IMG/VR virus record: IMGVR_UViG_3300005805_000161
Span: 1 to 42,260 of that record
From: a virus
Taxonomy: Duplodnaviria; Caudoviricetes
Reading direction: 5' to 3' (one strand)
DNA length: 42,260 bases
Shown here in pieces: positions 25,662-41,818 of this stretch (positions are counted from its first letter, which is position 1; every line of letters begins with the position of its first letter). The translations under genes were made by a program, and so were the position numbers. The notes beneath the pieces are model-generated. The model saw only the letters and a program-made list of their open reading frames with translations. It had not been told where the DNA came from and did no database searches.

Positions 25662-25854
25662 CTTCGCTCCTATATTTTTTCGGTAATCGGTAGTGCTTCT
25701 CCCATGTCTCCTGCGGTATCTCGATGGACATCATCTTGAAGTCGCACTCCTTGCAGACGCGCTGACGCTGCACGAAGTCAAACGTGTTGGATATGTCCCG
25801 ATACCTTCTGGTGTCAGTGACTAGGGTCTTCTTGTCGCAGGATGGGCACCACAT
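25648..25854 (-). CDS. NrdR-like N-terminal zinc-ribbon protein
   Basis: CPSC..VTDTR..RQRVCKEC; no ATP-cone domain. Confidence 0.75.
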   Translation of the reverse strand: MWCPSCDKKTLVTDTRRYRDISNTFDFVQRQRVCKECDFKMMSIEIPQETWEKHYRLPKKYRSEDEQG

Positions 25855-26765
25855 TATTTTAAGATCTTGTCGGTTGCGAGAAAGATAGTTTCCAGCGATG
25901 TCAGTGTAGGCCGGTATCCCAGCGCGTACGCCGCTGTGTTCACAGAGTAATACTTCTCCTTAACGCCGGTTGATGGCAACCCTACTTGATGTCCGACAGT
26001 CTCATACTCCAGCCCGTACCTGTGCGCCATCTTTTCCAGTAGGGTGTCCTTGCTGACTGGCTGTCGGCTGTAGCAGTCGATGGCAGTGTTGATGTTGTCC
26101 GTGGTCAGCAGCACGTTGATCATCTGGTAGAAGTCCAGCGGGCCGATGTAGTCACGCATGATGGGTGTGCGGTCAGCCTTGAAGATAGTCTTCTCCTGTA
26201 TTGCCCGGATAATATCTGTGATCATGAACCGGTGCTTTAGGCTCATGGTGTGGCTGAAGTAGTTGAACAAACGCAGGTCGATGATGTTCCTGCCGCTCAT
26301 GCGGTGCCGCACCTCCGCCATCGCCTTGGCCAGACCGTAGTAGTTCTCTGGCTGGATGTTATTGATAGGGAAGACAGCGTGTTTCTGGGTATCTGCGGGC
26401 GTTTGGAAGTTGTCACCGAAAGCAGCACCGCTGGACAAGAAGATATACAGGCAGTTCCTGTTCTCCTCCAGATACTCCATTGCCATGCGGTCAAAGGTCT
26501 CGGTGATGTTGAAGATGTTGGCACCCATCTTCTTCACACGCTCAGGGTTGCCTGCGCCTACGAAGTTAATGATGGCATCTACGCCCCTGACTGCCGGGAA
26601 GTCGAAGTACGTTCGGCTGTGGTAATTGTTCAGGTTATGTTCAACCATCCACCTGCCCATGGCTGTAGCCTCGCGGGAGAATAGTTCCAGCTCGTGCTCG
26701 TCGCTGAAGGACAGGATCAGGTCTTTGGCGATCTGGCTGGTAGCTCCAAGGATGGCGATCTTCAT
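25854..26765 (-). CDS. NAD-dependent epimerase/dehydratase/reductase (extended SDR)
   Basis: ILGATSQIA Rossmann motif, FLSSGA, catalytic YGLAK, RDYI. Confidence 0.9.
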   Translation of the reverse strand: MKIAILGATSQIAKDLILSFSDEHELELFSREATAMGRWMVEHNLNNYHSRTYFDFPAVRGVDAIINFVGAGNPERVKKMGANIFNITETFDRMAMEYLEENRNCLYIFLSSGAAFGDNFQTPADTQKHAVFPINNIQPENYYGLAKAMAEVRHRMSGRNIIDLRLFNYFSHTMSLKHRFMITDIIRAIQEKTIFKADRTPIMRDYIGPLDFYQMINVLLTTDNINTAIDCYSRQPVSKDTLLEKMAHRYGLEYETVGHQVGLPSTGVKEKYYSVNTAAYALGYRPTLTSLETIFLATDKILK

Positions 26766-27496
26766 GCCTGCACCACCATTTCTGCGGCCAGCTCTTCGTC
26801 AGATAGGAACGGAGCCATGTTGTGCAGTGGCATTTGCTTGCCATCCTTTAGCCCTTGTGATGGGAAAAGCTGCTGGTTTTGTGTGCACTGGACATTAATC
26901 AATACTGGTTTTTCCATGCACAGTATTTCTTTAAAGAATTTGAACTGTGCAACTGTGTGCACATACCTGCTGGATATGCCAAATGTTGATGCTAGTTGCT
27001 CAAAGTCAGGGAACCACAATCCTGTTTCTTTATTCACGCCATACACCCTGCCGTTGTAAAACTTGGATTGAGTGTTCTTGATGCTGAGATAGCCTTTGTT
27101 GTTCAGAACTATGATCTTGATTGGCAGGTTGTGATTGAGGATTACCGCCAACTCCTGCACATTAGACATGAAGCTTCCATCTCCAACGATGCAGATAACA
27201 TTCTTTGCCCCCGCCATGGCCACGCCGATGGAGGCGGGCAGCGCCCAGCCCATGTCGCCCTGCGATTGACTCATGACAATTCGCTGCTGTGCCCGGATGC
27301 GCGCAGCCTGCGGGAGCGTGTAGTAAGCGGTGCCTGCATCTGCCATCAACACAGCATCGTCTGGCGCGTGGCGGAAAATAGCGTCCAGTACGGCGTAGAT
27401 GTTCAAGCCATGCGTGTCATCCAGATACTCCGGCTGCATGACAGGCCATTTATGTTTCCAATGCTGGCACTTGTTTATCCATTGTTGTCTGGTCAT
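26762..27496 (-). CDS. ThDP-dependent enzyme, C-terminal ThDP-binding part (AHAS/YerE-like)
   Basis: GDMGWALPASIG and the GDGSF..(x)..NN ThDP motif. Confidence 0.88.
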   Translation of the reverse strand: MTRQQWINKCQHWKHKWPVMQPEYLDDTHGLNIYAVLDAIFRHAPDDAVLMADAGTAYYTLPQAARIRAQQRIVMSQSQGDMGWALPASIGVAMAGAKNVICIVGDGSFMSNVQELAVILNHNLPIKIIVLNNKGYLSIKNTQSKFYNGRVYGVNKETGLWFPDFEQLASTFGISSRYVHTVAQFKFFKEILCMEKPVLINVQCTQNQQLFPSQGLKDGKQMPLHNMAPFLSDEELAAEMVVQA

Positions 27497-28512
27497 AGCA
27501 TGGCTCCGAAGAATTGTTCTAACGGTATGTTGATCTTGTGGTCTACCGGCACGATGTCCTTGGCCAGCTCGTTGGCATCTATGTCCACGTAGATCTTGCG
27601 GCTCTTAGGGCTGAACTGCTTGGGGTCGTAGCCAATCACGCCAGCGTTCATGGAAGATCCAAGAATCAGCAGGAGGTCAGCGTTCTGCATGGCAAAGTTT
27701 CCAAACCTAGTGCCACGCGAGCCTACGGTTCCCATGTTTAGCGGGTGGTCGTACGGCAGGTAATCTTGTGCGCCATAGCTGGTGACAAATGGGATCTCGT
27801 ACTTGGTGACAAACTGGACAAACTGCTCCACGCAGCCAGACTGCCGGATACCCATGCCTGCCAAGATGATTGGGCGGTTGGCATTCTTCATGTCGTGCCA
27901 GATGGTCATAGGGTTGAAGTCATACTCAAGTTCGGCATTTGTTGGTATGTGGCAATAATGAACAGGGATCTCCGGCATCTCTGCCTGCTGGATATCTATG
28001 GGAATGTCTATCCATACAGGCCCCGGCCTCCCTAATGTTGCGTGATGTACTGCGGCTTCCAGCGCGATACTGACAAAATTAACATCGGAAACGAAAATTG
28101 ATAGCTTGGTCATCGACCTCACGGTTGTGGTGATGTCGTGTTCTTGCAATCCGTAGTGACGCAGCGACAAGTTTTTTTCTTTGTTGATATGCGCCGTGCA
28201 TGTGTCCTTGCGCACGTTGCCTGACAGGAACAGCACCGGCACTCCGTCCTGCCAAGCGTTCAGCACACTGGTAGCGCAGTTTGTTCCCCCGCACCCGGTG
28301 GTAGGGTTGACCACGGCCAGCTTGCCTGTGTACTTAGCCTCGCCTATGGCTGCGTGGCCAGCGCCCTGCTCGTGGTGGTAACAGATGTACTCTATGCCGC
28401 CGTGCTTGATGAAGCCGTCGTTTAACCCTGCCGCTCCGCCACCCATCAGCCCATGCACCCGGCGCACGCCTATGCTGTGCAGGTACTCTGCAATCCAGTC
28501 GGCTACTCTCAT
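27493..28512 (-). CDS. ThDP-dependent enzyme, N-terminal and middle domains (AHAS/YerE-like)
   Basis: MRVADWI..HHEQGAGHAA (catalytic Glu), GRPGPVWIDIP; GGAGAG RBS before ATG 28512. Confidence 0.9.
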   Translation of the reverse strand: MRVADWIAEYLHSIGVRRVHGLMGGGAAGLNDGFIKHGGIEYICYHHEQGAGHAAIGEAKYTGKLAVVNPTTGCGGTNCATSVLNAWQDGVPVLFLSGNVRKDTCTAHINKEKNLSLRHYGLQEHDITTTVRSMTKLSIFVSDVNFVSIALEAAVHHATLGRPGPVWIDIPIDIQQAEMPEIPVHYCHIPTNAELEYDFNPMTIWHDMKNANRPIILAGMGIRQSGCVEQFVQFVTKYEIPFVTSYGAQDYLPYDHPLNMGTVGSRGTRFGNFAMQNADLLLILGSSMNAGVIGYDPKQFSPKSRKIYVDIDANELAKDIVPVDHKINIPLEQFFGAML

Positions 28513-28526
28513 ATCACTCTCCAAAA

Positions 28527-29045
28527 TTATCGTGCGTTGAATGCTATAACTGTTTTTCTGCCAGACTGGTTTGGTTTTGATTCATGCTCAAACGCTCCAG
28601 GGAATGAAAGTATTTGACCTTCTTTTACAGGAACAGAAAACTCTTTTCCAAACAAATGAAATGTTGTCAAAGAACTTCCGGTCGGTAATTCAACATAGTA
28701 AATACAAGAAAAACATGAATGATGTCTATGTGGCCCATGATAGTCTCCAATTTCATATTGCTGAAACCAATAATTATCTAAACTAAGATTTGGCGGATTG
28801 TGATATTTAATGACTTCTGATAATTTATTTAAATATTTTTCAAATATGTTTCCAACAACATCCATGTATGGGCGATGAATATCGCTTGCTATAAGCCAAT
28901 CTGTTTTTGAAATCAATTCACAGTCTGTTTTTATGTCTGTATTTGGGCAAACATTTATTTGTTCTAAAACTTTTTCTTTTATTTCTAAATGATTAGGAAC
29001 GGAATCTACAAACATAGGGAACTTGTGCTCCAAAATTTCTATCAT
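28527..29045 (-). CDS. putative 2OG-Fe(II) oxygenase (AT-rich)
   Basis: WFQQY..DYHGPHRH..CIYYVELP..FPG..HES..RKTVIAFN; start at 29045 by ATGA overlap. Confidence 0.8.
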   Translation of the reverse strand: MIEILEHKFPMFVDSVPNHLEIKEKVLEQINVCPNTDIKTDCELISKTDWLIASDIHRPYMDVVGNIFEKYLNKLSEVIKYHNPPNLSLDNYWFQQYEIGDYHGPHRHHSCFSCIYYVELPTGSSLTTFHLFGKEFSVPVKEGQILSFPGAFEHESKPNQSGRKTVIAFNAR

Positions 29046-30283
29046 CGGTACTCCTTCATGAACTTGTCGATGGTGTCGCACACGTAGTCCAGCATGGGCT
29101 GTGTCAGCGATGGCTGTACGCCCAGCCAGAAGGTGTTGTGCATTACATAGTCTGTCTGCTCTAGGCTGCCGTGCACGCGGTAGTTCTGACCCTTCAGGAA
29201 CGGCTGCTTGGTAGCGTTACCAGCAAACAGCAGGCGGGTGCCGATGTTGTGGCTGTTCAGGTACAGGATCAACTCCTGCCGCTTGAACTTGACGTCCGGG
29301 GCGAGCGTGATCGGGAACCCGAACCAGCTAGGGTGTGCGTCTGGGTAGACCGTCGGCAGCCACAGCTCCTCGTAGTTCGACAGTCGGTTAGCCAGATAGG
29401 AGTAGTTGCTGCGGCGCATGGAGATGAAGTAGTCCAGCTTCTCCAACTGAGCCACGCCACACGCGGCCTGCATCTCCGTGATCTTCAGGTTGTAGCCCAC
29501 ATGCGTGAACACGTACTTGTGGTCATAGCCGTAGGGCAGCCCCTCGAACTCTTGGCAGTACCGCTGCTTGCAGGTATTGTCCTTGCCAGGCTCGCACCAG
29601 CAGTCCCTGCCCCAGTCGCGGAAGGATTCCACCAGCCGGGTGAGCTTGGTGTTGTTGATGATCACTGCCCCGCCTTCGCCCATCGTGATGTGATGCGCAG
29701 GGAAGAAGGACAGGGTAGCCAAGTCTCCGAAGGTGCCGACGTTCTGGTTGCGCCATCGTGCGCCCAGTGCGTCACAGCAGTCCTCGATCAGCCACAGGTT
29801 GTGCTTCTTGGCCAAGGCTGCGATCTCTTCCAGATTGAACGGGTTGCCCATGGTGTGGGCTATGAAGATCGCCTTGGTCTTCTCTGTGATGGCCGACTCC
29901 AGATCCTTGGTGTCGATGTTCAAGGTCGTGTTGATGTCCAAGAACACTGGCACGGCACCGGCTTGGATGATGGGGTTGATCGTCGTGGGGAACCCGCAGG
30001 CCACGCTGATCACCTCATCGCCCTTCTTGATGGCCCTCTCCCCCAGCTTGGGGGAGGTCAGTGCCATGAAGGCTACAAGGTTGGCAGAGCTGCCACTGTT
30101 GACAGTCCTGACAGCTTTGCTGCCGATCCAGCGGGTGAGCGTGTCCTCGAACTCGCGGTTGAAGGTACTGGCGGTCAGCCAGCCCTTGTCCACGGCCTTG
30201 TGCATCAGCTCCTTCTCCCGCTCTCCGATCACCTGACCGGAGGCTGGGATGAAGGTGTCACCGGGTGTGAAGGCTAGGGTCAT
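29042..30283 (-). CDS. rfbH: CDP-6-deoxy-4-keto-glucose 3-dehydrase (E1, RfbH/DdhC)
   Basis: VNSGSSANL, IEDCCDALG, SFFPAHHITMGEGG (His in place of the PLP Lys), RDWGRDCWC..NTC Fe-S motif, YDHKY; start at 30283. Confidence 0.9.
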   Translation of the reverse strand: MTLAFTPGDTFIPASGQVIGEREKELMHKAVDKGWLTASTFNREFEDTLTRWIGSKAVRTVNSGSSANLVAFMALTSPKLGERAIKKGDEVISVACGFPTTINPIIQAGAVPVFLDINTTLNIDTKDLESAITEKTKAIFIAHTMGNPFNLEEIAALAKKHNLWLIEDCCDALGARWRNQNVGTFGDLATLSFFPAHHITMGEGGAVIINNTKLTRLVESFRDWGRDCWCEPGKDNTCKQRYCQEFEGLPYGYDHKYVFTHVGYNLKITEMQAACGVAQLEKLDYFISMRRSNYSYLANRLSNYEELWLPTVYPDAHPSWFGFPITLAPDVKFKRQELILYLNSHNIGTRLLFAGNATKQPFLKGQNYRVHGSLEQTDYVMHNTFWLGVQPSLTQPMLDYVCDTIDKFMKEYR

Positions 30284-31050
30284 ACTTCCTCGGCTTTGGG
30301 TTGGGGTAGCTGCGGTTTCTCTGTCAGGATGCCGTCGAACTTGTGGGTACCGATATGGGCTAGTTGTGCCCACGGTGCCGCCCAGACTGTGCCCTCGCAC
30401 TTGTCACGCCAGACCTTGCAGAAGTGGTAGTCCTCAGACAGCAGGCGCTCTCCCAGCGGCTCGATGCTGGTGGCGAAGAACTCATGGATGCGCTCGTTAC
30501 CGATAGCGCCGCTCAAGTCATGGGTATCGTTGATGTAGCTGGGCACATGGTCCTTGAGCTGCTCGAAGACCTCGCGCTTGATCAGCATGAAGCCGGTACC
30601 GCCATTCCAGATTTCCACGGGCTGGCCAATCTCCACGCGCTGCTCGCCGGCATACTCCTTCAGGTTGACCACGAAGGATCCGCTGTACTTGCGCAGCTCA
30701 TGCGGGGGCACGCCTGCTAGGGCGGCTGCGTGGATCTGTGACCAGTTGATTTCCTTCTTGGGGTAGATACCGCAGATGATCGGCTTGTCTGCCAGCAGCA
30801 TTGGGAGAACGTCCTGCGGGTTGAAGTGGATGTCTGCGTCGATGAACATCAGGTGGGTGAAGTCTGTCTTCAGAAACCCGTGGACCAAGGCGTTACGCGC
30901 CCGCTGGATCAGCGACTCGTTGAACAGGAAGCTGGCAGCCATGTCCACCTTGTTGTCTCGCAGGATGTTCTGTAGCTGCATCAGGGACTGCGTGTAGTAA
31001 CCGGCGCAAAGCCCACCATACATCGGGGTAGCTACAAAAAGTTTTGCCAT
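30280..31050 (-). CDS. GT-A fold glycosyltransferase-like protein
   Basis: VATPMYGG..ESLIQRARN..MFIDAD..GTGFMLI..LSEDYHFC. Confidence 0.85.
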   Translation of the reverse strand: MAKLFVATPMYGGLCAGYYTQSLMQLQNILRDNKVDMAASFLFNESLIQRARNALVHGFLKTDFTHLMFIDADIHFNPQDVLPMLLADKPIICGIYPKKEINWSQIHAAALAGVPPHELRKYSGSFVVNLKEYAGEQRVEIGQPVEIWNGGTGFMLIKREVFEQLKDHVPSYINDTHDLSGAIGNERIHEFFATSIEPLGERLLSEDYHFCKVWRDKCEGTVWAAPWAQLAHIGTHKFDGILTEKPQLPQPKAEEV

Positions 31051-31060
31051 GTGAATCTCC

Positions 31061-31771
31061 TCAAAAAGTAAAGACTTGGCGCTTGGTCCAAGGGAAGTCA
31101 GTAAATCTGCTGCTCATAAAGTTGTTGTTATCCATGAACATCTGCGGCGTCATGCCACCAGTCCCATCGTGGGACAAGCGGTAGTTCGTGCTGTGCTTGC
31201 CGGTGGTGCCGCACCTGATCCTGTTGCGCATCAGCTCTGCTTGGAAGTTGCGGTCTGACACAATGGGCACGTACCAGGCGTAGCCATACCTGCGGGCAAC
31301 GTCCGTGCGTACGGCATAGCAGGAGTTGTCCACGAGGTAGTGACCAGCGGCGTTGGGCTGGCAGCCGAGCGACTCGCAGTTGTCGTCACAGATCCAGTTG
31401 CCCTCGTTGTCCACGATCTTGCGCAGGCTGTACGCCCAGCCGAGGTCGTTCTGTTCTATCAGGCTGGCCAGTGACTCGATGTGGTCAGGCTCGAACCAGT
31501 TATCGTCATCGAGGTAGAAGATGATGTCTTCGTCGATCACGTAAGGAGCCAGAGCATAAACAGGAGCCATGCCGTAACCACCCCCACCGTTAGCCCGAGG
31601 TAGGTGAACGGCGACCGTATCATCCGATAGATGAGGGATGGTCTTGTCGGAATAGTCTGCACCATGGATGAATACGTAATGCGTAGCCTGCCTAGTTTGA
31701 TCCTGAACACTTTTGATTGCCCTCTTTATGGTTGGTCTGCCTTGTGTGCTGGTGACTACTGCTATCCTCAT
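31061..31771 (-). CDS. glycosyltransferase family 2-like
   Basis: GRPTIKRAIKSV..QT..FYLDDDNW. Confidence 0.85.
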   Translation of the reverse strand: MRIAVVTSTQGRPTIKRAIKSVQDQTRQATHYVFIHGADYSDKTIPHLSDDTVAVHLPRANGGGGYGMAPVYALAPYVIDEDIIFYLDDDNWFEPDHIESLASLIEQNDLGWAYSLRKIVDNEGNWICDDNCESLGCQPNAAGHYLVDNSCYAVRTDVARRYGYAWYVPIVSDRNFQAELMRNRIRCGTTGKHSTNYRLSHDGTGGMTPQMFMDNNNFMSSRFTDFPWTKRQVFTF

Positions 31772-32712
31772 CGATGCTCCTCTATCAGCCGGTAAAGCTG
31801 TTTCACTTCCTCATCGTTGTCAAACTGGTTGGCCTTGTCTGACCGGATGAAACTGTCTATCGCCTCCAGGTATCCGCAGTACGTCGTGTAATCCATCTCC
31901 CGCAGGAAGTTGTACAACTCCTTGTACGACTTGAACTCCCGCATGTCGATGTAGCACTCGGGCGGGATGTGGTTGTGAATGTTGGGCGCACCCCAGTACA
32001 CAGGGACAGTGCCGGCCATAAAGGCGTCGAGGATCTTCTCGCTGATATATCCCACCGCCGTATCCGTGTTCTCGAACGTGATGGCGAACCGGTAGTTGGC
32101 GTACGTCGCCAGCTTGTTGCTGGTGGTGCCTTTGTAGAACGGGACATGTCTGATATCCCAGCCGCGTCCGTACAGGTCGAAGTCAAAGATGGCGTTGTCC
32201 TTGAACCACTGGATCAGCTCGATGCGCTTTTCGTACAGGCTGCCGGGTATGTTCTTGGCGGTCTGGATCATGACTGCCAGCTTGTTGGTAAAGAAGTCTC
32301 CCCGCGAGCACTCGCACGGCAGGCGTTCTTTCCAGTCCACGGTGAAGTTGTGCTTGTCGTATTTCTTCTTGATGGTCAGCCTGTCATCCCATGTCAGCAC
32401 CCGGCTGAACTGATCGTGGTACGCCTCGTCCCAGTTCTCCGGCAGGATCAGTGGCGGCTCGTACAGGATCAGGACTTTGCTGGCACCTGGTACGTCAGGC
32501 TCCACGCGAGGGCGATCCATGTAGATCACGAGGTCCACGATGTGCGGGTCTACCTGATCGAGGGTGTACAGCTCGATGCCGGTGGACTTGCACAGTTTGT
32601 ACAGGTCATTCCAAGACTGAAGCAGGTTGTGGCCGATGTCGCTGTTCTGGTTCTTGAACAGGTAGCCATCGGTCGTGATGAACTCGTAGTGATTGTGGAC
32701 TGCTACTCTCAT
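31768..32712 (-). CDS. glycosyltransferase family 10 (alpha-1,3-fucosyltransferase-like)
   Basis: YRFAITFEN..GYISEKI.DA..AGTVPVYWG motif. Confidence 0.9.
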   Translation of the reverse strand: MRVAVHNHYEFITTDGYLFKNQNSDIGHNLLQSWNDLYKLCKSTGIELYTLDQVDPHIVDLVIYMDRPRVEPDVPGASKVLILYEPPLILPENWDEAYHDQFSRVLTWDDRLTIKKKYDKHNFTVDWKERLPCECSRGDFFTNKLAVMIQTAKNIPGSLYEKRIELIQWFKDNAIFDFDLYGRGWDIRHVPFYKGTTSNKLATYANYRFAITFENTDTAVGYISEKILDAFMAGTVPVYWGAPNIHNHIPPECYIDMREFKSYKELYNFLREMDYTTYCGYLEAIDSFIRSDKANQFDNDEEVKQLYRLIEEHR

Positions 32713-32909
32713 TCCTCTCCTCTCCTGATGGCCGCCGCTATGTCTGGGCTGCCCATCTCCTCACATAATGCTGCGCACCGCTCGCGCTCCTGTGTTGCTA
32801 CCATCTTTGCAAATCTGCGCATCCAAGCCATGGCTGCCGAGTCAGGGGCATAGATCAGCTCTTCTTCCTCGGCGGCCTGGTTTGCCATCTCGAACAGCTT
32901 GCGGCTCAT
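32709..32909 (-). CDS. small hypothetical protein (ERERCA family)
   Basis: QERERCAALCEE..AAAIRR; ATGA overlaps on both sides. Confidence 0.7.
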   Translation of the reverse strand: MSRKLFEMANQAAEEEELIYAPDSAAMAWMRRFAKMVATQERERCAALCEEMGSPDIAAAIRRGEE

Positions 32910-33148
32910 CTAACGAGCCAGTCATACAGCGCTCTCACAACGGTTAGGCCGACGCCGATAGCCGCGTAGAACAGGACAATCCACGCGCCCACTTCCACGG
33001 AACTCAGGTACTTCTCGTACACGCTGCCCCAGCGGCTGCTGTACTGAACGGTAGGTATCTCGTCACTCACAGTCTTGTAGAACTGCGGCACGTACGCAGA
33101 GCCAATCTTGGGCGGCTCTTCCTTAATGAACTTTCCATCTCTCAGCAT
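32906..33148 (-). CDS. small membrane hypothetical protein
   Basis: AGGAGG RBS; C-terminal TM segment. Confidence 0.7.
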   Translation of the reverse strand: MLRDGKFIKEEPPKIGSAYVPQFYKTVSDEIPTVQYSSRWGSVYEKYLSSVEVGAWIVLFYAAIGVGLTVVRALYDWLVR

Positions 33149-33156
33149 GTTTCCTC

Positions 33157-33921
33157 CTACGTGTTATTCCTACCAGCCCGCATCAGGTCGCCGGCATATA
33201 CGTGTTGACCGACATGACGTAGCTCGATTGTCGGATCGGCAAAGATTTTACCGCCCTCCTTCTTCCACAGCTCGCAGAAGTGATAATCCTCTGACAACAG
33301 CAATCCAAGCTCAGTAATGCTGAGGCCGAAGAACTCGCGGGTAAGCGGTGCAAGAAACTGACCGTTTGCCGGGTTGGTAATCAGGCTGGTGCGGTACGTA
33401 GGAACCTTGAAACGCAGTGCCTTGAACACATCCCGGTGGATCAGCATGAACCCTGTGCCGCCGTGCAGGACTTCCACCAAGCCGTTCTCGCCCAGCGGAA
33501 CCTTGTCTCCATCATCAGCCACGGCGTTCAGGACGTAGCTACAACCGAAGTTCTCGATGTCTTTCTCCCCGCGCAGGGCAGCTTCACGGATTCGATCCCA
33601 GAACAGGAACTTCTTGGGGTAGATCCCGCAGACCATTTCCTTCTCGTGCTGGAGCAGCTTGTAGATACCGTCAGTCGGGAACCAGATGTCAGCATCGATG
33701 AACATCAGGTAATCGTCCTGAGTCTCATCCAAAAAGTACCGGGCAATCTCGTTACGGGCACGGGTGATCAGGGCTTCTTTGTTCATGAACTGCCAGCGGG
33801 TGCGGATACCCTTCTGCTCAAGGAAGGACAGGTTCCGGGCTAGGCTGTCTACGTACTCCATGAACATGGCTCCGCCGTAGGCAGGAGTGCCAATCATGAT
33901 GGTTGGTTTGCCGTCAATCAT
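33157..33921 (-). CDS. GT-A fold glycosyltransferase-like protein (paralog of 30280-31050)
   Basis: IGTPAYGG..EALITRARN..MFIDAD..GTGFMLI..LSEDYHFC; start at 33921 with GGAGG RBS. Confidence 0.85.
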   Translation of the reverse strand: MIDGKPTIMIGTPAYGGAMFMEYVDSLARNLSFLEQKGIRTRWQFMNKEALITRARNEIARYFLDETQDDYLMFIDADIWFPTDGIYKLLQHEKEMVCGIYPKKFLFWDRIREAALRGEKDIENFGCSYVLNAVADDGDKVPLGENGLVEVLHGGTGFMLIHRDVFKALRFKVPTYRTSLITNPANGQFLAPLTREFFGLSITELGLLLSEDYHFCELWKKEGGKIFADPTIELRHVGQHVYAGDLMRAGRNNT

Positions 33922-34091
33922 GGTTTTACCTCCACCCATTCGCCGGGCTTTACCATCAACTGAGGCAAGGTCACACACTGTATGACCAATGCGTTCTGTT
34001 TGATGATCTGCTCGTTCATTTCAAGAACCCGCTTCAGTATGGCAACGTATTCATCCGACGGGAGGATGGCTTTCACGGTTGGATCACTCAT
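33918..34091 (-). CDS. small hypothetical protein (57 aa)
   Basis: Hand-translated MSDPTVKAILPSDEY...EWVEVKP; overlaps both neighbours and fills the gap. Confidence 0.6.
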   Translation of the reverse strand: MSDPTVKAILPSDEYVAILKRVLEMNEQIIKQNALVIQCVTLPQLMVKPGEWVEVKP

Positions 34092-36751: not shown

Positions 36752-37623
36752 AGTTCCTCCTTACGGTAGTTTTTCCACTGATCGCAGAACGATGCAACCT
36801 GACAGAAGCTTTCGCATCTCGTCCTGCCGCCCTCTCTGGTCTCAATAAAGTGCGCCCCTTTCTGTTCGGCCAGGAACGCTTCGGCCTGCTGCTTGATCAT
36901 GAATACTTTCTTCGCCCGCTTGCCGCCCTCTTTCATGACGGCATAGGTCGTTGGCTTCTCCCACATCTCATCGCTTGTGCATTCGGGCATCTGGCCGCTG
37001 ACGACTGCGAAGTTGGCTTCGTTGTGCAGGTTCAGACGAGTGCGCACGAACTGCTCGCGGGTGTCGTGGTCCCACAGTGGGATATCCAGCACCACGATAG
37101 GTGCCTGAGGGTAGCCTTCCTTGTTGGCTGCATCTCTGCGGCTCCAGTCCCGGACGATGCCGACGATCTGTAGGCCGGAGACAGACACTGACTTCGTGGT
37201 TTCAATCAGCCATGCGTAGAGATTCAACTGGTCTACCCACTCTGTCTTCTCCTGCTGGACTGCCCAGGCTGACGTGACCTTGTAGTCGCTGATAACTAGC
37301 GTGCCGTCGGGCTGGATCTCCTGAAGGTCTATCTGGCCGGAGATACGCCAGCCCTCGAACGTGGTGAACAGCCGCTCCTCGACGATGTGGTTGCTATCTG
37401 CGCCGTGCTGAAGGATGTTGTGGCAGGCTGATCCGAACAAAGACCAGACACGGTCTGCTGCATCTTCCTCGATATCCTCGGCGTGCCGGCGGCGTAGCTG
37501 TACCAGCTGAGGCGGTGAAAGGATCTCTGTGACGCTGATCTCACTGTCGCCACGGCTGTACGTAGGCCGCTGGATGACGTTGACGAACGTCTGAGGCAGG
37601 TTGAATTTGTTGGTTAGTTTCAT
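36748..37623 (-). CDS. PD-(D/E)XK (Cas4/RecB-like) phage exonuclease
   Basis: GSACH..ISGQID..ISDYKVT..QLNLY and C-terminal RCESFCQVASFC; in the same operon as ERF. Confidence 0.85.
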   Translation of the reverse strand: MKLTNKFNLPQTFVNVIQRPTYSRGDSEISVTEILSPPQLVQLRRRHAEDIEEDAADRVWSLFGSACHNILQHGADSNHIVEERLFTTFEGWRISGQIDLQEIQPDGTLVISDYKVTSAWAVQQEKTEWVDQLNLYAWLIETTKSVSVSGLQIVGIVRDWSRRDAANKEGYPQAPIVVLDIPLWDHDTREQFVRTRLNLHNEANFAVVSGQMPECTSDEMWEKPTTYAVMKEGGKRAKKVFMIKQQAEAFLAEQKGAHFIETREGGRTRCESFCQVASFCDQWKNYRKEEL

Positions 37624-37632
37624 CTCTCCTCC

Positions 37633-37666
37633 CTAGATGTAGAAGGTATACTATCCCCAGATGTAG
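37633..37666. promoter_or_regulatory. two operator-like boxes (CTAGATGTAG, CCAGATGTAG)
   Basis: Pseudo-palindrome CTAnATnTAG at 37633 and 37657, 24 bp apart. Confidence 0.6.
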
Positions 37667-37676
37667 GAAACGTCAA
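37648..37676 (-). promoter_or_regulatory. leftward sigma70-type promoter
   Basis: On the minus strand TTGACG-17 bp-TAGTAT, followed by GGGAGGAG RBS and ATG 37623. Confidence 0.75.
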
Positions 37677-37776
37677 CAGATAATTTGCAACAGGAACCAT
37701 GTGTTGCATTAGCAACTACTTGGAAACATTTCCACATGTACTTGCAGTCTGCGGTGGATGTGGTAGTGTTTTGTCA

Positions 37777-37907
37777 GGGGAAAGCCTGGCCATCACTCTC
37801 CTTCCGTGAATCTCCTCGGCTGGGTGAGTACCCCCTGATTTCTCGCAAGTCTGGCTTTTGAGGCGAGCCAGCGACTTTCCCCGGTCTCCGTGCCGGGGTC
37901 TTTTTTT
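37777..37907 (+). ncRNA. candidate small RNA with two anti-SD segments
   Basis: Upstream TGG-TAGTGT -10; closing stem GGGGAAAG/CTTTCCCC; hairpin CTGGCT/AGCCAG; ends at a terminator. Confidence 0.45.
37879..37907 (+). terminator. rho-independent terminator
   Basis: CCCCGG-8 nt-CCGGGG followed by TCTTTTTTT. Confidence 0.7.
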
Positions 37908-37935
37908 GCAACTGTCTGTTCCTGTATAATTGCAA

Positions 37936-38182
37936 TAGCTAGGCGCTGGTCAGCCGAACGCACCACGGCTACGAGAGAAAGCCGGTGTCCTAGCTCCAAG
38001 ACGCATGACCATTGCTGGACGCGAGAGCGCAAAGCGGACTAACCCAGAACCGGAAAGCCAAGGAGCACGCGGCCACCTTGGTAGGCAAGACGGGGAAAGT
38101 GCAGTGGTCAGCCGTGTTGATGTAACCGAGTGTGGATGCACGGCGCTACGTCGATGACACCCCGGAAAGACGGGGACTTGCA
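37936..38182 (+). ncRNA. candidate structured ncRNA (~250 nt)
   Basis: TATAAT at 37925-37930; helices AGCTAGG/CCTAGCT, TGACCATTGC/GCAGTGGTCA, CCAAGG/CCTTGG, GCCGTG/CACGGC, CCCCG/CGGGG. Confidence 0.5.
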
Positions 38183-38256
38183 TAGATTCTGTTCCTGTCC
38201 TATCATTCGGGCTGTCAGAGGTGGCACTCTGTCATGCCTTGTCAGGGCAAATAAGT

Positions 38257-38400
38257 AACCCCAGTCAGTTTAGGTGGGGCATGTGTAGTTCAGTCGTATG
38301 TTCTCTGCACAACAGTAGAGATAAGTCCCTGACAGGATATGACTGAGTTGCCCATGCCAACGGGCCATGCCCCACCTAAGTTGTCTGGGGTTTTTCTTTT
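38257..38400 (+). repeat. long inverted repeat ending in a U-tract (structured RNA/terminator)
   Basis: TTAGGTGGGGCATG (38270-38283) / CATGCCCCACCTAA (38366-38379), extended by AACCCCAG/CTGGGGTT and then TTTCTTTT. Confidence 0.7.
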
Positions 38401-38717
38401 GGTGCTCTGACCGCACCTACCGCGATAGTCAGAGAGCCTGCATGGGCTGCCGTAGAGAGAACACTGGCCGAGGTCTCACCCGCCTGCGCGCCACGCCACC
38501 TGTCAGTGAGGGATGGCACAAGAGGGAAGGGCCAGTGGTGAGACATACCTTCCATCGAGATAATCGCTGCCTTCTGGGACAGCTAGGCCGCTGGGCACGA
38601 TCAGCAGGCTGGGCAGGGCAGATACCCCATCGAGTGCTTCGCATAGGTGGTGGGCTATCACCCATGGGGAACCTAAGAGCGGGGATGTGTTGCATAGCTG
38701 TTGACGGGAACAATGTA

Positions 38718-38746
38718 TTGACATATCCTAGATGTAGAGGTACAGT
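38718..38746 (+). promoter_or_regulatory. rightward sigma70-type promoter
   Basis: TTGACA-17 bp-TACAGT, then GGAGG RBS and ATG 38770. Confidence 0.8.
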
Positions 38747-38761
38747 GGAATCTAGATATAG
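38728..38761. promoter_or_regulatory. two operator-like boxes (CTAGATGTAG, CTAGATATAG)
   Basis: Same motif and 24-bp spacing as at the leftward promoter. Confidence 0.6.
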
Positions 38762-38769
38762 GAGGGGGT

Positions 38770-38961
38770 ATGGACTACGAACCACCAATGTGGGCAGAGG
38801 CAAGGGCAAACCGGAATATTTATGTGACCGAGGATCTGGCAAGGGCGGCAGAGCTGGAGGCATTGCGTGTTCATGAGCGCGAGCGGGCGGCCATGATTTG
38901 CCACGCTTGCAGGGATTTACCGCCGGAGGAGATTGCGGAAAGAATTTTGGGTAGGAACTAA
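38770..38961 (+). CDS. small hypothetical protein (ERERAA family)
   Basis: First gene after the promoter; strong RBS. Confidence 0.75.
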   Translation: MDYEPPMWAEARANRNIYVTEDLARAAELEALRVHERERAAMICHACRDLPPEEIAERILGRN

Positions 38962-38963
38962 TC

Positions 38964-39018
38964 GGCTGGGCGAGCTTAGGCGAGCAGAGGTAAGGCCGGG
39001 TAGGGTGTGGTGTGGTTT
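38964..39018 (+). repeat. orphan GGY-NN pentamer unit (11 pentamers)
   Basis: ggctg ggcga gctta ggcga gcaga ggtaa ggccg ggtag ggtgt ggtgt ggttt; 9 of 11 begin with GGY. Confidence 0.8.
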
Positions 39019-39039
39019 TTTTAACTTAGGAGAGTGATC

Positions 39040-39705
39040 ATGGATATGAAGGTCAAGGAAACATCAGTAGTTATTTCAGCGCCCAAGTTCAACACCGTGG
39101 AGGTGCTGCTGCGCGGCACTGCGCCGTTGGTGGTGGCACGGTTTTCCAAGAAGGCAGAGCTGATGGCCAAGATGGCTGAAGGCAGCAGCGCCAAGAGCAA
39201 GAAAGAGCGCATCGCTCGTGACTATGACAAAGAGGCAGAGGCTGCTCGCTACCGCGCACCAGAGGGCTGGGAAGGTGTCAATGCCGCGGCCTTCCGTGCT
39301 GGCATGATCAGCGCCTGCCGACTGGTGGGATTCAAGATGACGCTGGCCAAGCTGTCAGTTTTCATCGAAGCCGATGGTTTTGATCTCCAGGATGGCATCC
39401 CGCTTGTGCGCGTGTACGGCAAGTCAGAGACCTTCACGGCACACACCCGCAACGCAACTGGCGTGGTGGATGTACGCAGCCGCCCGATGTACCGGGACTG
39501 GGCTATCAAGCTGCGCGTTCGGTTTGATGCTGACCAGTTCAACGCACAGGATGTGTACAACCTGATCGCCCGTGTCGGTGGCCAGGTCGGTCTGTGCGAG
39601 GGCCGTCCCGATTCCAAGTCCAGCGCAGGCTGCGGCTTCGGTACGTTCGAGGTTGTTCCTAACGACGAACAGAAGGAAGTGTTCAAGAAGTTCGGCATCA
39701 AGTAA
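39040..39705 (+). CDS. solo RAMP/Cas7-like RNA-binding protein (Vipr-like)
   Basis: N-terminal V.LRGTAPL strand, AAAFRAGM helix, RP...W...L.V.F and C-terminal Gly-rich loop VGLCEGRP...GFGTFEV; AGGAGAG RBS; no other cas genes nearby. Confidence 0.75.
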   Translation: MDMKVKETSVVISAPKFNTVEVLLRGTAPLVVARFSKKAELMAKMAEGSSAKSKKERIARDYDKEAEAARYRAPEGWEGVNAAAFRAGMISACRLVGFKMTLAKLSVFIEADGFDLQDGIPLVRVYGKSETFTAHTRNATGVVDVRSRPMYRDWAIKLRVRFDADQFNAQDVYNLIARVGGQVGLCEGRPDSKSSAGCGFGTFEVVPNDEQKEVFKKFGIK

Positions 39706-39708
39706 CCA

Positions 39709-40195
39709 GGCAGGTATCGTCCGGCTGGGCGGCGCACGGCGCCGTTCGGCACGGTGTGGCATGGCAGGTCCGTCTGGGCAGCGCTGGGCCAGGCTTGATT
39801 GGGTGTGTTTTGGTACGGCAGGTTTGGCGCGGACCGGCGTGTTCTGGCCGCATCCGGCCCGGCTGGGCAAGGTATGGCAGGTAAGGCACGGATCGTTCAG
39901 CACCGGTTGCGTACGGTCTGGTGAGGCAGGTCGGGAGGGGCTTGGTAGGCTCGGGAAGGGTCTGGTGAGGCAGGTATGGTGTGGACTCGTGTGCATCGGT
40001 TCGATGGGGCTGGGCAGCGCAGGTCAGCTCAGGCGAGGTTTGTCGGAGTATGGTGCGGAGCGGCAGGTATGTTTGGGCCTGGTGTGCTTCGGTGCGGAGG
40101 GTTGGGCAGGTGAGGCGTGTTGGGGCTTGGTAACGCAAGGTAAGGTGTCGCAGGAGTGGTTTGGAATCGTGGGTGTGGACAGGTAACGCAGGTAA
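39709..40195 (+). ncRNA. GGY-NN pentamer array of 10 units (putative guide-RNA array, VIPR-like)
   Basis: (G/C)GCA-GG delimiters at 39709, 39763, 39817, 39876, 39925, 39969, 40018, 40062, 40105, 40149, 40187, with 5-nt periodicity between them. Confidence 0.85.
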
Positions 40196-40211
40196 CTTTT
40201 AAGGAGAGATC

Positions 40212-40703
40212 ATGGAGATTCAAAAGGCAGAGCAGTACGCAGCGGAGCGGGCGATATTGGAAAAGCTGGCCAAGCAGAATGATGGATTGCTGCTGGTCGA
40301 TGCAGTGCTGGAGGAGGCAAAGGATCCCAGGTCAGTCCTGCACAAACATTTCCAGTGGGATGATGACAAGGCCGCAGAAGCCTATCGCAAGCATCAGGCA
40401 CGGCAACTGATCCAGAAGTGCACAGTCACGGTAGAGAAAGCCCCTGACGTAGCTATCCGCGCGTTCGTCAGCCTGTCCACAGATCAGTACGAGGGCGGCG
40501 GGTATCGCATGACGGCAACAGTCCTGTCAGATGACAACCTCAAAGCCCAGCTCCTGCACGACATGCAACTAGCCATCGTCAAGTGGAAGAAGCAAGTCAA
40601 CTTACTGGACACAGAGACAGAGGAAGTGCTCAACAGACTGGAAGACATTGTGACTAGGAATGTCAGCGACCGCAGGAAGAAACATGATCAGCAGGTGGCG
40701 TAA
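40212..40703 (+). CDS. hypothetical protein, candidate accessory of the RAMP/array locus
   Basis: AAGGAGAG RBS right after the array; V.EEAKDPRSVLHKHFQWDDDKAAEAYR..QARQLI. Confidence 0.8.
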   Translation: MEIQKAEQYAAERAILEKLAKQNDGLLLVDAVLEEAKDPRSVLHKHFQWDDDKAAEAYRKHQARQLIQKCTVTVEKAPDVAIRAFVSLSTDQYEGGGYRMTATVLSDDNLKAQLLHDMQLAIVKWKKQVNLLDTETEEVLNRLEDIVTRNVSDRRKKHDQQVA

Positions 40704-41818
40704 TGATCCAGTTCAACAGATACAGATTGCCCGACGAGACCGATGACTTCCACATCCGGTTCATCGCGTTAGTCAACAGCATCATCCATGAGCTGCCGGG
40801 CGACATGAAGGGCAGCATGGACAAGCTGCGTGAGCTGTCACACAGATACCCGCTGAACGACCGGCTGCCAGCGGTGGCGGCCAGGCTATTCTTCTGGGGC
40901 AAGGTGGCATGGGATGACATCAAGGACATCCTGCCGGCAGAACTACCGGCCACGTTCTTTTACAAGCAGGAGATCGTCGGCTGCTTGGGATACGAGCGGG
41001 CATGGCGCAGGTACGGGATAGGTGAAGACCAGTGGAATCTTTACCAAGGCATGGATACCTACCTACCCCACGGTCATCAACCCAGCAGCGTGGTCTGTTA
41101 CCAGCCGCGCAGCAGCGGGTTCTTCTCTGTCATCGAGAACATCATCGCCGCTGACATTGCCGCCAGCATCGAGGGCTACGAGATGATCATCGACTTGTCC
41201 GGCAACTGGTGGGGATATGACGAGCCGTTCGAGGACATCTTCGGCGACCTGTTCCAGTACACCAAGGACGGCGTGCTGCCCAAGATGAACTTCGATGCCA
41301 TGCGCAAGATCTGGATGACGCCGACAGACACCACGGCAGCCTTGTTGTCCACCATGAAAGCCAACTGGTACAACCATATCTACCAGTCGATCGCAGCCTA
41401 CGCGCCCGAGGTCAAGGGCATAGATAACTGCGGCGTGGTGTTTGTACGCGGCGGTGACAAGCTACAGACAGAGACCATCATGTCGCCTACCGGCCTGATC
41501 AGGCGGGACGTAAAGATGATGGAGCGGCTATGCCAGCAGAGATATGTACTGTCCGATGACAAGGACGTAGGTGAGCGTATCGCAGGGCTGGATGGGTACT
41601 TGATCGACCGCAGCCATCAGGTTGAGGGCGGGTATCATCATCAGCCCGGCCGCAAGACCAGTTGCATGAACATCCTCGGCAACTATTTGGCCATGGTCGA
41701 GGCCAAGATTAACTTCTCTTGCCCGTCAGCCAACCTTGTCAACGCGGCACAGTGGACGCGCAACGATGACGAGAACTACAGCCAAGCCAACCCTGTCTAT
41801 AGGTATCTGCTGATATGA
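40703..41818 (+). CDS. fucosyltransferase-like protein (GT23/NodZ-type GT-B)
   Basis: GFFSVIENI; VFVRGGDK (cf. motif I H-I-R-R-G-D-K); YVLSDD (motif II); CPSAN (motif III-like). Confidence 0.6.
   Translation: MIQFNRYRLPDETDDFHIRFIALVNSIIHELPGDMKGSMDKLRELSHRYPLNDRLPAVAARLFFWGKVAWDDIKDILPAELPATFFYKQEIVGCLGYERAWRRYGIGEDQWNLYQGMDTYLPHGHQPSSVVCYQPRSSGFFSVIENIIAADIAASIEGYEMIIDLSGNWWGYDEPFEDIFGDLFQYTKDGVLPKMNFDAMRKIWMTPTDTTAALLSTMKANWYNHIYQSIAAYAPEVKGIDNCGVVFVRGGDKLQTETIMSPTGLIRRDVKMMERLCQQRYVLSDDKDVGERIAGLDGYLIDRSHQVEGGYHHQPGRKTSCMNILGNYLAMVEAKINFSCPSANLVNAAQWTRNDDENYSQANPVYRYLLI

What the first reader, a model, noticed from the sequence alone, without database searches (positions are those of the whole stretch)
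39709..40195. Array grammar: 4-nt delimiter plus an integer number of pentamers
Unit lengths counted by hand are 54, 54, 59, 49, 44, 49, 44, 43, 44, 38 nt; eight of ten equal 4+5n (n = 8-11). Each unit begins GGCA or CGCA, almost always followed by GGT. In units 1-7, 40 of 65 pentamers start with exact GGY and most others are near-variants (CGY, GGA, GTT, GCT), while the last two bases vary freely. This fits neither codon structure nor slippage. The phase-shifting GGCA may be a processing site that yields separate guides.
Basis: seen in the sequence. Interest (0 to 1): 0.85.

Follow-up and report, generated by a model that had tools for sequence, protein, structure and literature searches.

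The report
Phage VIPR staggered guide-RNA array
This repeat is the guide array of a phage VIPR system, an RNA-guided gene-silencing system described in 2026, and its units match conserved genes of integrated mobile islands and rival phages, which the phage likely silences after the array RNA is likely cut into separate guides.

Summary
Unit lengths, 40 of 65 exact GGY pentamers and the 5-nt period all hold against 2000 shuffles. In relatives, 533 of 568 unique spacings equal 4+5n. The array lies between a RAMP-fold gene whose only PDB sequence match is SUSP1 Vipr and an accessory gene, with the same order in 80 of 80 relatives. This is a VIPR system. The 4+5n grammar equals the published 'staggered array' with 1-nt overlap (Fig. 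S18 legend of 10.64898/2026.04.26.720920). Read with the 1-nt-skip code, unit 3 matches HGGxSTG genes, unit 7 a PolA motif and unit 1 an integrase motif, all in integrative islands. Unit 4 matches Sak4 recombinases of other phages. Only skip 1 is enriched in independently chosen loci (17 vs 1.3). The skipped base is the wobble position in 24 of 26 target clusters. The delimiter and usually the last pentamer are not read. RNA cleavage is untested. Side lead in relatives only: a conserved guide matches host moaC. Verdict: new member of a known kind.

The parts
38718..38746 (+). sigma70-like promoter candidate (TTGACA-17-TACAGT, 10 of 12) upstream of the operon
   Evidence: consensus match only
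38770..38961 (+). 63-aa ORF of unknown function, first gene after the promoter candidate
   Evidence: weak phrog_2575 match E 0.006
38964..39018 (+). upstream single tract of 11 in-register GGY/NN-like pentamers ending in a T run; candidate extra vrRNA, no target found
39040..39705 (+). vipr gene (RAMP-fold protein, 221 aa from the ATG at 39040; longest ORF starts 39034)
   Evidence: only PDB sequence match is SUSP1 Vipr 36pp (E 0.0023; profile E 3.6e-4); AF2 model pLDDT 78 matches Csm3/Cmr RAMPs, Z 9.3, rmsd 3.3, 145 aligned
39709..39762 (+). guide unit 1; predicted target is the tyrosine-integrase motif VPHGFRS, antisense
   Evidence: 16 of 18 bases in L302; relatives' versions 14 of 14; core passes threshold
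39763..39816 (+). guide unit 2; possibly the HGGxSTG gene just upstream of the unit 3 site (weak)
   Evidence: 15 of 18 in L275, within null; a related guide of L043 gives 17 of 20 there; exact 16-base viral scan gave no convergent target
39817..39875 (+). guide unit 3; predicted target is the HGGxSTG gene ([FL]HGGRSTGAK), antisense
   Evidence: 18 of 19 exact 20-base metagenome hits lie in frame in this gene family; 19 of 20 in an HMM-chosen locus
39876..39924 (+). guide unit 4; predicted target is the Sak4-like recombinase (AAA_24) of other phages, sense, one mismatch
   Evidence: 58 of 58 viral hits in this family at 17 of 18 bases, pattern loosened at one base after a first hit
39925..40017 (+). 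guide units 5 (39925-39968) and 6 (39969-40017); targets unresolved, weak candidates in the gene upstream of PolA
   Evidence: best scores within shuffle range
40018..40061 (+). guide unit 7; predicted target is PolA motif QQEFGIAA of integrative islands, sense
   Evidence: 5 of 47 exact viral hits; 14 of 14 in an independently chosen locus L305; relatives' longer guides extend the match to 24 of 24
40062..40186 (+). guide units 8 (43 nt), 9 (44 nt) and 10 (38 nt); 8 and 10 are one base short; no target found
40187..40195 (+). terminal delimiter CGCA-GGTAA closing the array just before the ribosome-binding site of the next gene
   Evidence: same ending in relatives
40212..40703 (+). candidate vap accessory gene (163 aa, phrog_15946), mostly helical, function unknown
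   Evidence: homolog follows the array in 80 of 80 relatives; fold search uninformative

Best explanation
The array is the guide (vrRNA) array of a phage VIPR system, and each 4+5n unit is likely a separate guide that directs the neighbouring Vipr protein to DNA of integrative islands and rival phages, likely to silence their genes. Shown here: the sequence grammar, the gene order vipr-array-vap, the RAMP fold, and matches of the variable dinucleotides to conserved genes under a two-read, one-skipped code. Taken from published work on the distant SUSP1 system: one Vipr subunit binds each pentamer, holds the GGY and presents the NN for pairing, and binding represses transcription. Inferred: the operon is transcribed as one RNA; the 4-nt delimiter breaks the 5-nt register so that a filament cannot run from one unit into the next; the unprotected, A-rich junction (typically GGYAA-GGCA-GGY) is cut, most likely by a host RNase or by Vipr/Vap; the last pentamer plus delimiter take the place of the structured 3' tail of SUSP1 guides. 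The islands (integrase, AlpA, PolA or primase-helicase, HGGxSTG gene, sometimes P27-type small terminase) are likely phage satellites that would parasitise this phage.
For: Grammar; 533 of 568 unique spacings are 4 mod 5 in 75 arrays. Protein; SUSP1 R138 and R179 align with R150 and R191, both invariant in 41 sequences. Synteny 80 of 80. NN conserved while scaffold triplets vary between phages, e.g. unit 7 vs L012 unit 5, 8 of 8 dinucleotides. Code test on 18 loci chosen by HMM only: 17 of 439 guides reach 93% or more with skip 1 vs 1.3 shuffled; skip 0, 2, 3 give 0, 1, 0. On 20 loci around unit 3 hits: 21 of 475 at 90% or more vs 0.7; skip 0 and 2 give 0. On 90 PolA loci: 9 of 475 at 95% or more vs 0. 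Wobble frame in 24 of 26 target clusters vs 51 of 150 shuffled best hits; first pentamer fully matched in 20 of 26, last in 5 of 26; bases flanking the match equal the delimiter's CA or AG in 2 of 26 upstream and 3 of 26 downstream. Units 3 and 7 hit one 5.1-kb contig, L268 (20 of 20 and 15 of 16). Best self-matches are only 72-79%, and the phage encodes Erf, not Sak4.
Against: Sequence similarity to SUSP1 Vipr is weak and covers about 50-65 residues; SUSP1 D177 and W178 align with E189 and G190. Units 2, 5, 6, 8, 9, 10 and the upstream tract have no target above the shuffle range. Unit 1 alone scores 16 of 18, which 2 of 40 shuffles reach. The PolA loci were fetched with a peptide pattern that overlaps unit 7's site and L264-L282 with unit 3's pattern, so those two hits in those sets are circular. 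The unit 4 pattern was loosened after a first hit, has no 18 of 18 match, and in 121 genomes it scored 3 against a similar control count. Cleavage, binding, silencing and the satellite nature of the islands were not tested. The host is not identified.
Confidence: 0.9

Rival explanations
1. Same VIPR guides, but the array RNA is not cut: the delimiter only resets the register, so several Vipr filaments sit side by side on one long RNA and each searches for its own target.
For: No nuclease was identified in the locus. The array has no stable fold that would mark a cut site (z -0.32). The invariant junction is only about 7 nt.
Against: The Fig. S18 legend of 10.64898/2026.04.26.720920 draws staggered arrays as individual processed vrRNAs, although the text names sRNA-seq support only for the ribozyme and single-guide architectures. 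A closing delimiter after the last unit resembles the n+1 repeats of arrays that are cut.
Confidence: 0.2
2. The tract is a functionless slippage-derived repeat or a low-complexity protein-coding region.
For: It is G-rich (219 of 487) and open frames cross it on both strands.
Against: Positions 4-5 carry no information while 1-3 do; dinucleotide strings are conserved between phages while scaffold letters change; unit lengths shift frame; only the 1-nt skip finds targets, in wobble frame.
Confidence: 0.01
3. The guides act on RNA or recruit a nuclease (target destruction) and do not simply silence transcription by sitting on DNA.
For: Vipr is a Cas7/Csm3-like fold; the Vap has invariant histidines H44 and H46; some VIPR types carry predicted nucleases.
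Against: Targets fall on both strands (16 antisense-frame and 8 sense-frame clusters of 26), which points to double-stranded DNA; no nuclease family matched the Vap.
Confidence: 0.08

Closest known systems
VIPR systems, staggered vrRNA arrays (10.64898/2026.04.26.720920, Fig. S18 legend)
   Same: Phage RAMP gene plus one accessory gene; GGY/NN pentamers; 1-nt skip code with the skip at the wobble position; consecutive guides overlapping by 1 nt, which gives unit lengths 5(n+1)-1 = 4+5n.
   Different: The figure itself and Data S3/S4 could not be seen, so the junction sequence, type number and published targets could not be compared. The text read gives no junction motif (GGCA: 0 occurrences in the supplement text) and no sRNA-seq for staggered arrays.
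Type II VIPR of phage SUSP1 (10.64898/2026.04.26.720927; 10.64898/2026.10.15.759431)
   Same: Only PDB sequence match of the protein; guides aimed at integrated satellite-like elements, including their recombinase.
   Different: SUSP1 has four ~100-nt guides, each with a ~40-nt pseudoknot tail. Here ten tail-less 38-59-nt units lie between vipr and vap, the scaffold is looser (GGA, GTT, CGY), and targets are PolA, HGGxSTG, integrase and Sak4 genes. SUSP1 was not among the phage records matched by either gene.
Cyanophage Cy-LDV1 (BK059895) g34-array-g33 locus
   Same: 55% identical Vipr, a Vap homolog and four GGCA-delimited units of 44, 39, 49, 49 nt between them.
   Different: Shorter array; both genes are annotated only as hypothetical.
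Class 1 CRISPR-Cas (Cas7/Csm3 filaments, Cas6-processed arrays)
   Same: RAMP fold; multi-guide array with a closing delimiter after the last unit.
   Different: No long direct repeat, no contiguous spacer, no cas genes found among the neighbouring ORFs tested.

Membership tests
VIPR | RAMP-fold Vipr protein outside a CRISPR locus | tested here: met
   SUSP1 Vipr is the only match; Csm3/Cmr top, Z 9.3, rmsd 3.3, 145 aligned
VIPR | minimal locus of vipr plus one vap gene in a phage | tested here: met
   80 of 80 relatives; virion, tail, endolysin genes in the window
VIPR | noncoding tract of alternating conserved GGY and variable NN | tested here: met
VIPR | NN read with a 1-nt skip, skip mostly at codon wobble, targets on both strands, no self-targets | tested here: met
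   (computational)
VIPR | vrRNA expressed, bound by Vipr, and repressing the target | not testable with these tools
   no RNA run listed
VIPR staggered-array architecture | consecutive guides overlap by 1 nt | tested here: met
   533 of 568 unique spacings are 4 mod 5; equals the wording of the Fig. S18 legend
VIPR staggered-array architecture | same junction sequence and Vipr clade as the published type | not testable with these tools
   figure and data files are not held
Type II (SUSP1-like) VIPR | each guide ends in a ~40-nt structured tail | tested here: not met
   units abut with only a 4-nt delimiter; array fold z -0.32
CRISPR array | long near-identical direct repeats separated by contiguous spacers | tested here: not met
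   no such repeat; invariant junction about 7 nt

The most novel reading that the evidence does not exclude
This widespread clade of tail-less staggered VIPR arrays makes its guides by a register-break cut at a 9-nt unread junction, and aims them not only at satellite-like islands and rival phages but also at a core host gene: a guide kept in 23 of 80 related phages spells the conserved LLTIYDM motif of moaC, so the phage would silence host molybdenum-cofactor synthesis or block an island that integrates there.
Probability: 0.4. Interest if true: 0.65.

Novelty: new member of a known kind. Interest (0 to 1): 0.36.

Why it matters
The system and its 1-nt-overlap grammar are already in print, so the finding itself is not new. 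It adds a large natural test of the code in a tail-less array type: targets at catalytic or conserved motifs of island integrases, polymerases and HGGxSTG genes and of rival phage recombinases, and a definition of which bases are read (first to next-to-last pentamer). A 4-nt delimiter that separates ten or more guides would be a very compact way to multiplex guides, and how it is processed is an open, directly testable question. The moaC lead, if real, would extend VIPR from conflict between mobile elements to control of host metabolism.

Tried and rejected
Pfam and NCBIfam gave no family for vipr or vap. Rfam gave nothing above threshold over 37600-40800. No RNA holder was listed for the locus. 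Guides against the window and the 80 VIPR loci: no enrichment for skip 0, 1 or 2 (skip 1, 90% or more: 2 vs 3 shuffled; skip 3 only finds the arrays themselves). Exact 16-base viral scans for units 1 and 2 gave 18 and 20 hits with no convincing target. A 16-base viral scan for unit 3 gave 6 hits, 1 in an HGGxSTG gene. One of the 19 metagenome hits for unit 3 (L264, 22 of 22) is not in an HGGxSTG gene and is probably chance. Idea that pentamer position 3 copies the skipped target base: rejected, chi-square p 0.49 on 39 pairs. Idea that the delimiter is read as a pentamer: rejected. Units 6 and 9 in 121 genomes: 8 and 2 genomes hit, no common gene. Upstream tract: no target above shuffles. Vap fold: low-confidence model (pLDDT 66), only generic helical-hairpin matches. 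No attachment-site repeat of 16 nt or more around the island next to moaC in L273/L274. Earlier findings of this scan: none returned. Paper searches: 'HGGxSTG' 0 papers; moaC with phage terms gave 19 papers, none of the 12 listed on this topic by title or abstract start; 'moaC', 'integrase', 'polymerase' 0 occurrences in the VIPR supplement text. The paper's Data S3 target tables could not be seen and may already hold some of these targets.

Full report
Observation. The sequence at 39709-40195 splits at [GC]GCAGG into units of 54, 54, 59, 49, 44, 49, 44, 43, 44 and 38 nt, followed by a closing delimiter. Units 1-7 contain 65 pentamers, 40 with exact GGY, 22 with one difference and 3 with two; information per position is 1.39, 1.02, 0.61, 0.00 and 0.05 bits. 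GGY pairs at lags 5, 10, 15 and at the shifted lags 9, 14, 19 exceed all 2000 dinucleotide shuffles.

Context. The window is a 42-kb phage contig with virion, tail, endolysin, Erf and exonuclease genes. The array starts three bases after the stop of a 221-223 aa ORF and ends at the ribosome-binding site of a 163-aa ORF. The first protein has 4991 homologs at E 0.001 or better. Its only PDB sequence match is SUSP1 Vipr (E 0.0023; profile E 3.6e-4). Its model (pLDDT 78) matches Csm3/Cmr-type RAMPs (best Z 9.3). SUSP1 R138 and R179 align with invariant R150 and R191; D177 and W178 do not carry over. In 80 of 80 related viral loci (68-95% identical Vipr) a homolog of the second gene follows. My parser found a directly adjoining array in 74 of 80; the other six have one after a short insert. 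Over the 75 parsed arrays, 533 of 568 unique spacings are 4 mod 5; delimiters are GGCA 505, CGCA 36, TGCA 14, AGCA 13.

What is known. I read the whole held text of 10.64898/2026.04.26.720920, including supplementary legends, and searched its supplement PDF text; figures and data files were not visible. It defines VIPR: a RAMP protein, GGY/NN RNAs, a 1-nt-skip code, transcriptional silencing. Its Fig. S18 legend describes staggered arrays in which guides come from 1-nt overlapping positions. A last pentamer GGCAG sharing its G with the next GGY gives exactly 4+5n. I read parts 1-2 of 6 of the structure paper 10.64898/2026.04.26.720927 (one subunit per pentamer), parts 1-3 of 8 and a term search of 10.64898/2026.10.15.759431 (SUSP1 VIPR silences a satellite recombinase), and passages of 10.64898/2026.10.21.760802. 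Three paper searches found no other VIPR papers.

Decoding the guides. Related phages keep the same dinucleotide strings while scaffold letters change. Unit 7 read with a 1-nt skip had 47 exact viral hits, 5 of them in frame on one PolA motif, QQEFGIAA. Longer guides of relatives continue the match into ALS(N/K), up to 24 of 24. Unit 3 was predicted to spell an HGGxSTG motif on the antisense strand; 18 of 19 exact 20-base metagenome hits lie in frame in such genes (family named by NCBIfam for a homolog). In the unselected flanks of those hits, 21 of 475 guides reach 90% with skip 1 against 0.7 shuffled, and none with skip 0 or 2 (this count includes unit 3 itself). One 5.1-kb contig, L268, carries integrase, AlpA, PolA and the HGGxSTG gene and is hit by both unit 3 and unit 7. 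As an independent test I took 18 loci chosen only by the HGGxSTG HMM from 401 genomes: 17 of 439 guides reach 93% with skip 1 against 1.3 shuffled, and 0, 1, 0 for skips 0, 2, 3. There unit 7 scores 14 of 14, unit 3 19 of 20, and unit 1 16 of 18 on the integrase motif VPHGFRS, where relatives' versions score 14 of 14. Unit 4 first hit a prophage ATPase at 15 of 16. A pattern loosened at that one base then gave 58 viral hits, all 58 in this family at 17 of 18, identified as AAA_24 / Sak4-like. This is post hoc and the 121-genome tally was not above control. Units 2, 5, 6, 8, 9, 10 and the upstream tract stay unresolved. Self-matches of the eight clean units are 72-79%.

What the grammar means. 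I selected guide-target pairs on the inner pentamers only (46 of 336 guides against 3.0 shuffled, 26 clusters, 127 loci; two clusters are circular by the way loci were fetched). The skipped base is the wobble position in 24 of 26 clusters against 51 of 150 shuffled best hits. The first pentamer matches fully in 20 of 26, the last in only 5 of 26, and flanking target bases rarely equal the delimiter's. The last pentamer is A-rich (AA 183, AC 93, AT 59, GA 56 of 525); the commonest junction is GGCAA-GGCA (74 of 519). So the working unit is n-1 read pentamers plus an unread junction of about 9 nt. Scaffold position 3 does not record the skipped base (p 0.49). The array has no unusual fold (z -0.32).

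Mechanism. Shown: grammar, gene order, fold, target matches on both strands. From published SUSP1 work: filament assembly and silencing. Inferred: one transcript from the promoter candidate at 38718; the delimiter breaks the 5-nt register and leaves a junction to be cut; the targets are satellite-like islands, several next to tRNA genes and one with P27-type small terminase genes, plus rival temperate phages. Cleavage is the least certain step; an uncut RNA with side-by-side filaments remains possible.

Side lead. A guide family present in 23 of 80 relatives but not in the window, often last or next to last in the array, decodes to LLTIYDM of host moaC. Its 14-base pattern hits 63 of 151 genomes against 0 for the reversed control (one of the 63, G031, is unpublished), and 19 of 20 loci read are moaC. 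The tally shows only that the motif is conserved. Most family members have 12 read bases, and the hit was noticed after the fact among 268 families, so chance is not excluded.

Verdict. A new member of a known kind: a staggered-array VIPR system. Interest 0.36, for the decoded targets and the open processing question.

Noticed in passing
L003:4294, L011:4010, L012:1807 and 20 more of L001-L080; target L273:5588, L310-L329: A guide family kept in 23 of 80 related phages decodes, antisense and in wobble frame, to the conserved LLTIYDM motif of host moaC; pattern present in 63 of 151 genomes vs 0 for the control. In L273/L274 an island integrase lies next to the 3' end of moaC.
   Followed up: partly
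window 38964-39018: Eleven in-register pentamers without a delimiter upstream of vipr, ending in a T run; relatives show no such GGY-dense tract in the 400 nt upstream. Candidate extra or remnant guide; no target found.
   Followed up: partly
L007, L008, L009, L019, L040, L067 just after vipr: An insert of about 150-300 nt separates vipr from the array; in L007 and L008 it is noncoding-looking with a shared purine/pyrimidine-complementary stretch before the first delimiter.
   Followed up: no
L268, L273, L276, L198, L201, L170: Family of small integrative islands (integrase, AlpA, PolA or primase-helicase, HTH-like gene, HGGxSTG gene, sometimes P27 small terminase), several beside tRNA genes; likely phage satellites. 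'HGGxSTG' gave 0 papers.
   Followed up: partly
L309:1100-1350 (Mycobacterium phage Pippy, KY965064): 27 mycobacteriophage records carry adjacent vipr and vap homologs; in Pippy a GGY-periodic tract lies upstream, annotated as small hypothetical gene 47.
   Followed up: partly
window 38226-38401: Two nested inverted repeats (36-nt and 22-nt arms) inside the long noncoding stretch 37624-38769 between the divergent gene blocks; possible structured RNA or origin.
   Followed up: no
window 25854-33978: Cluster of sugar-nucleotide and glycosyltransferase-like genes (epimerase, aminotransferase matches), probably for virion or DNA glycosylation.
   Followed up: no
window 39915-39928 and 39959-39972: Units 4 and 5 end in the same 10 nt plus delimiter (D11), a possible trace of duplication or recombination during array growth.
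   Followed up: no
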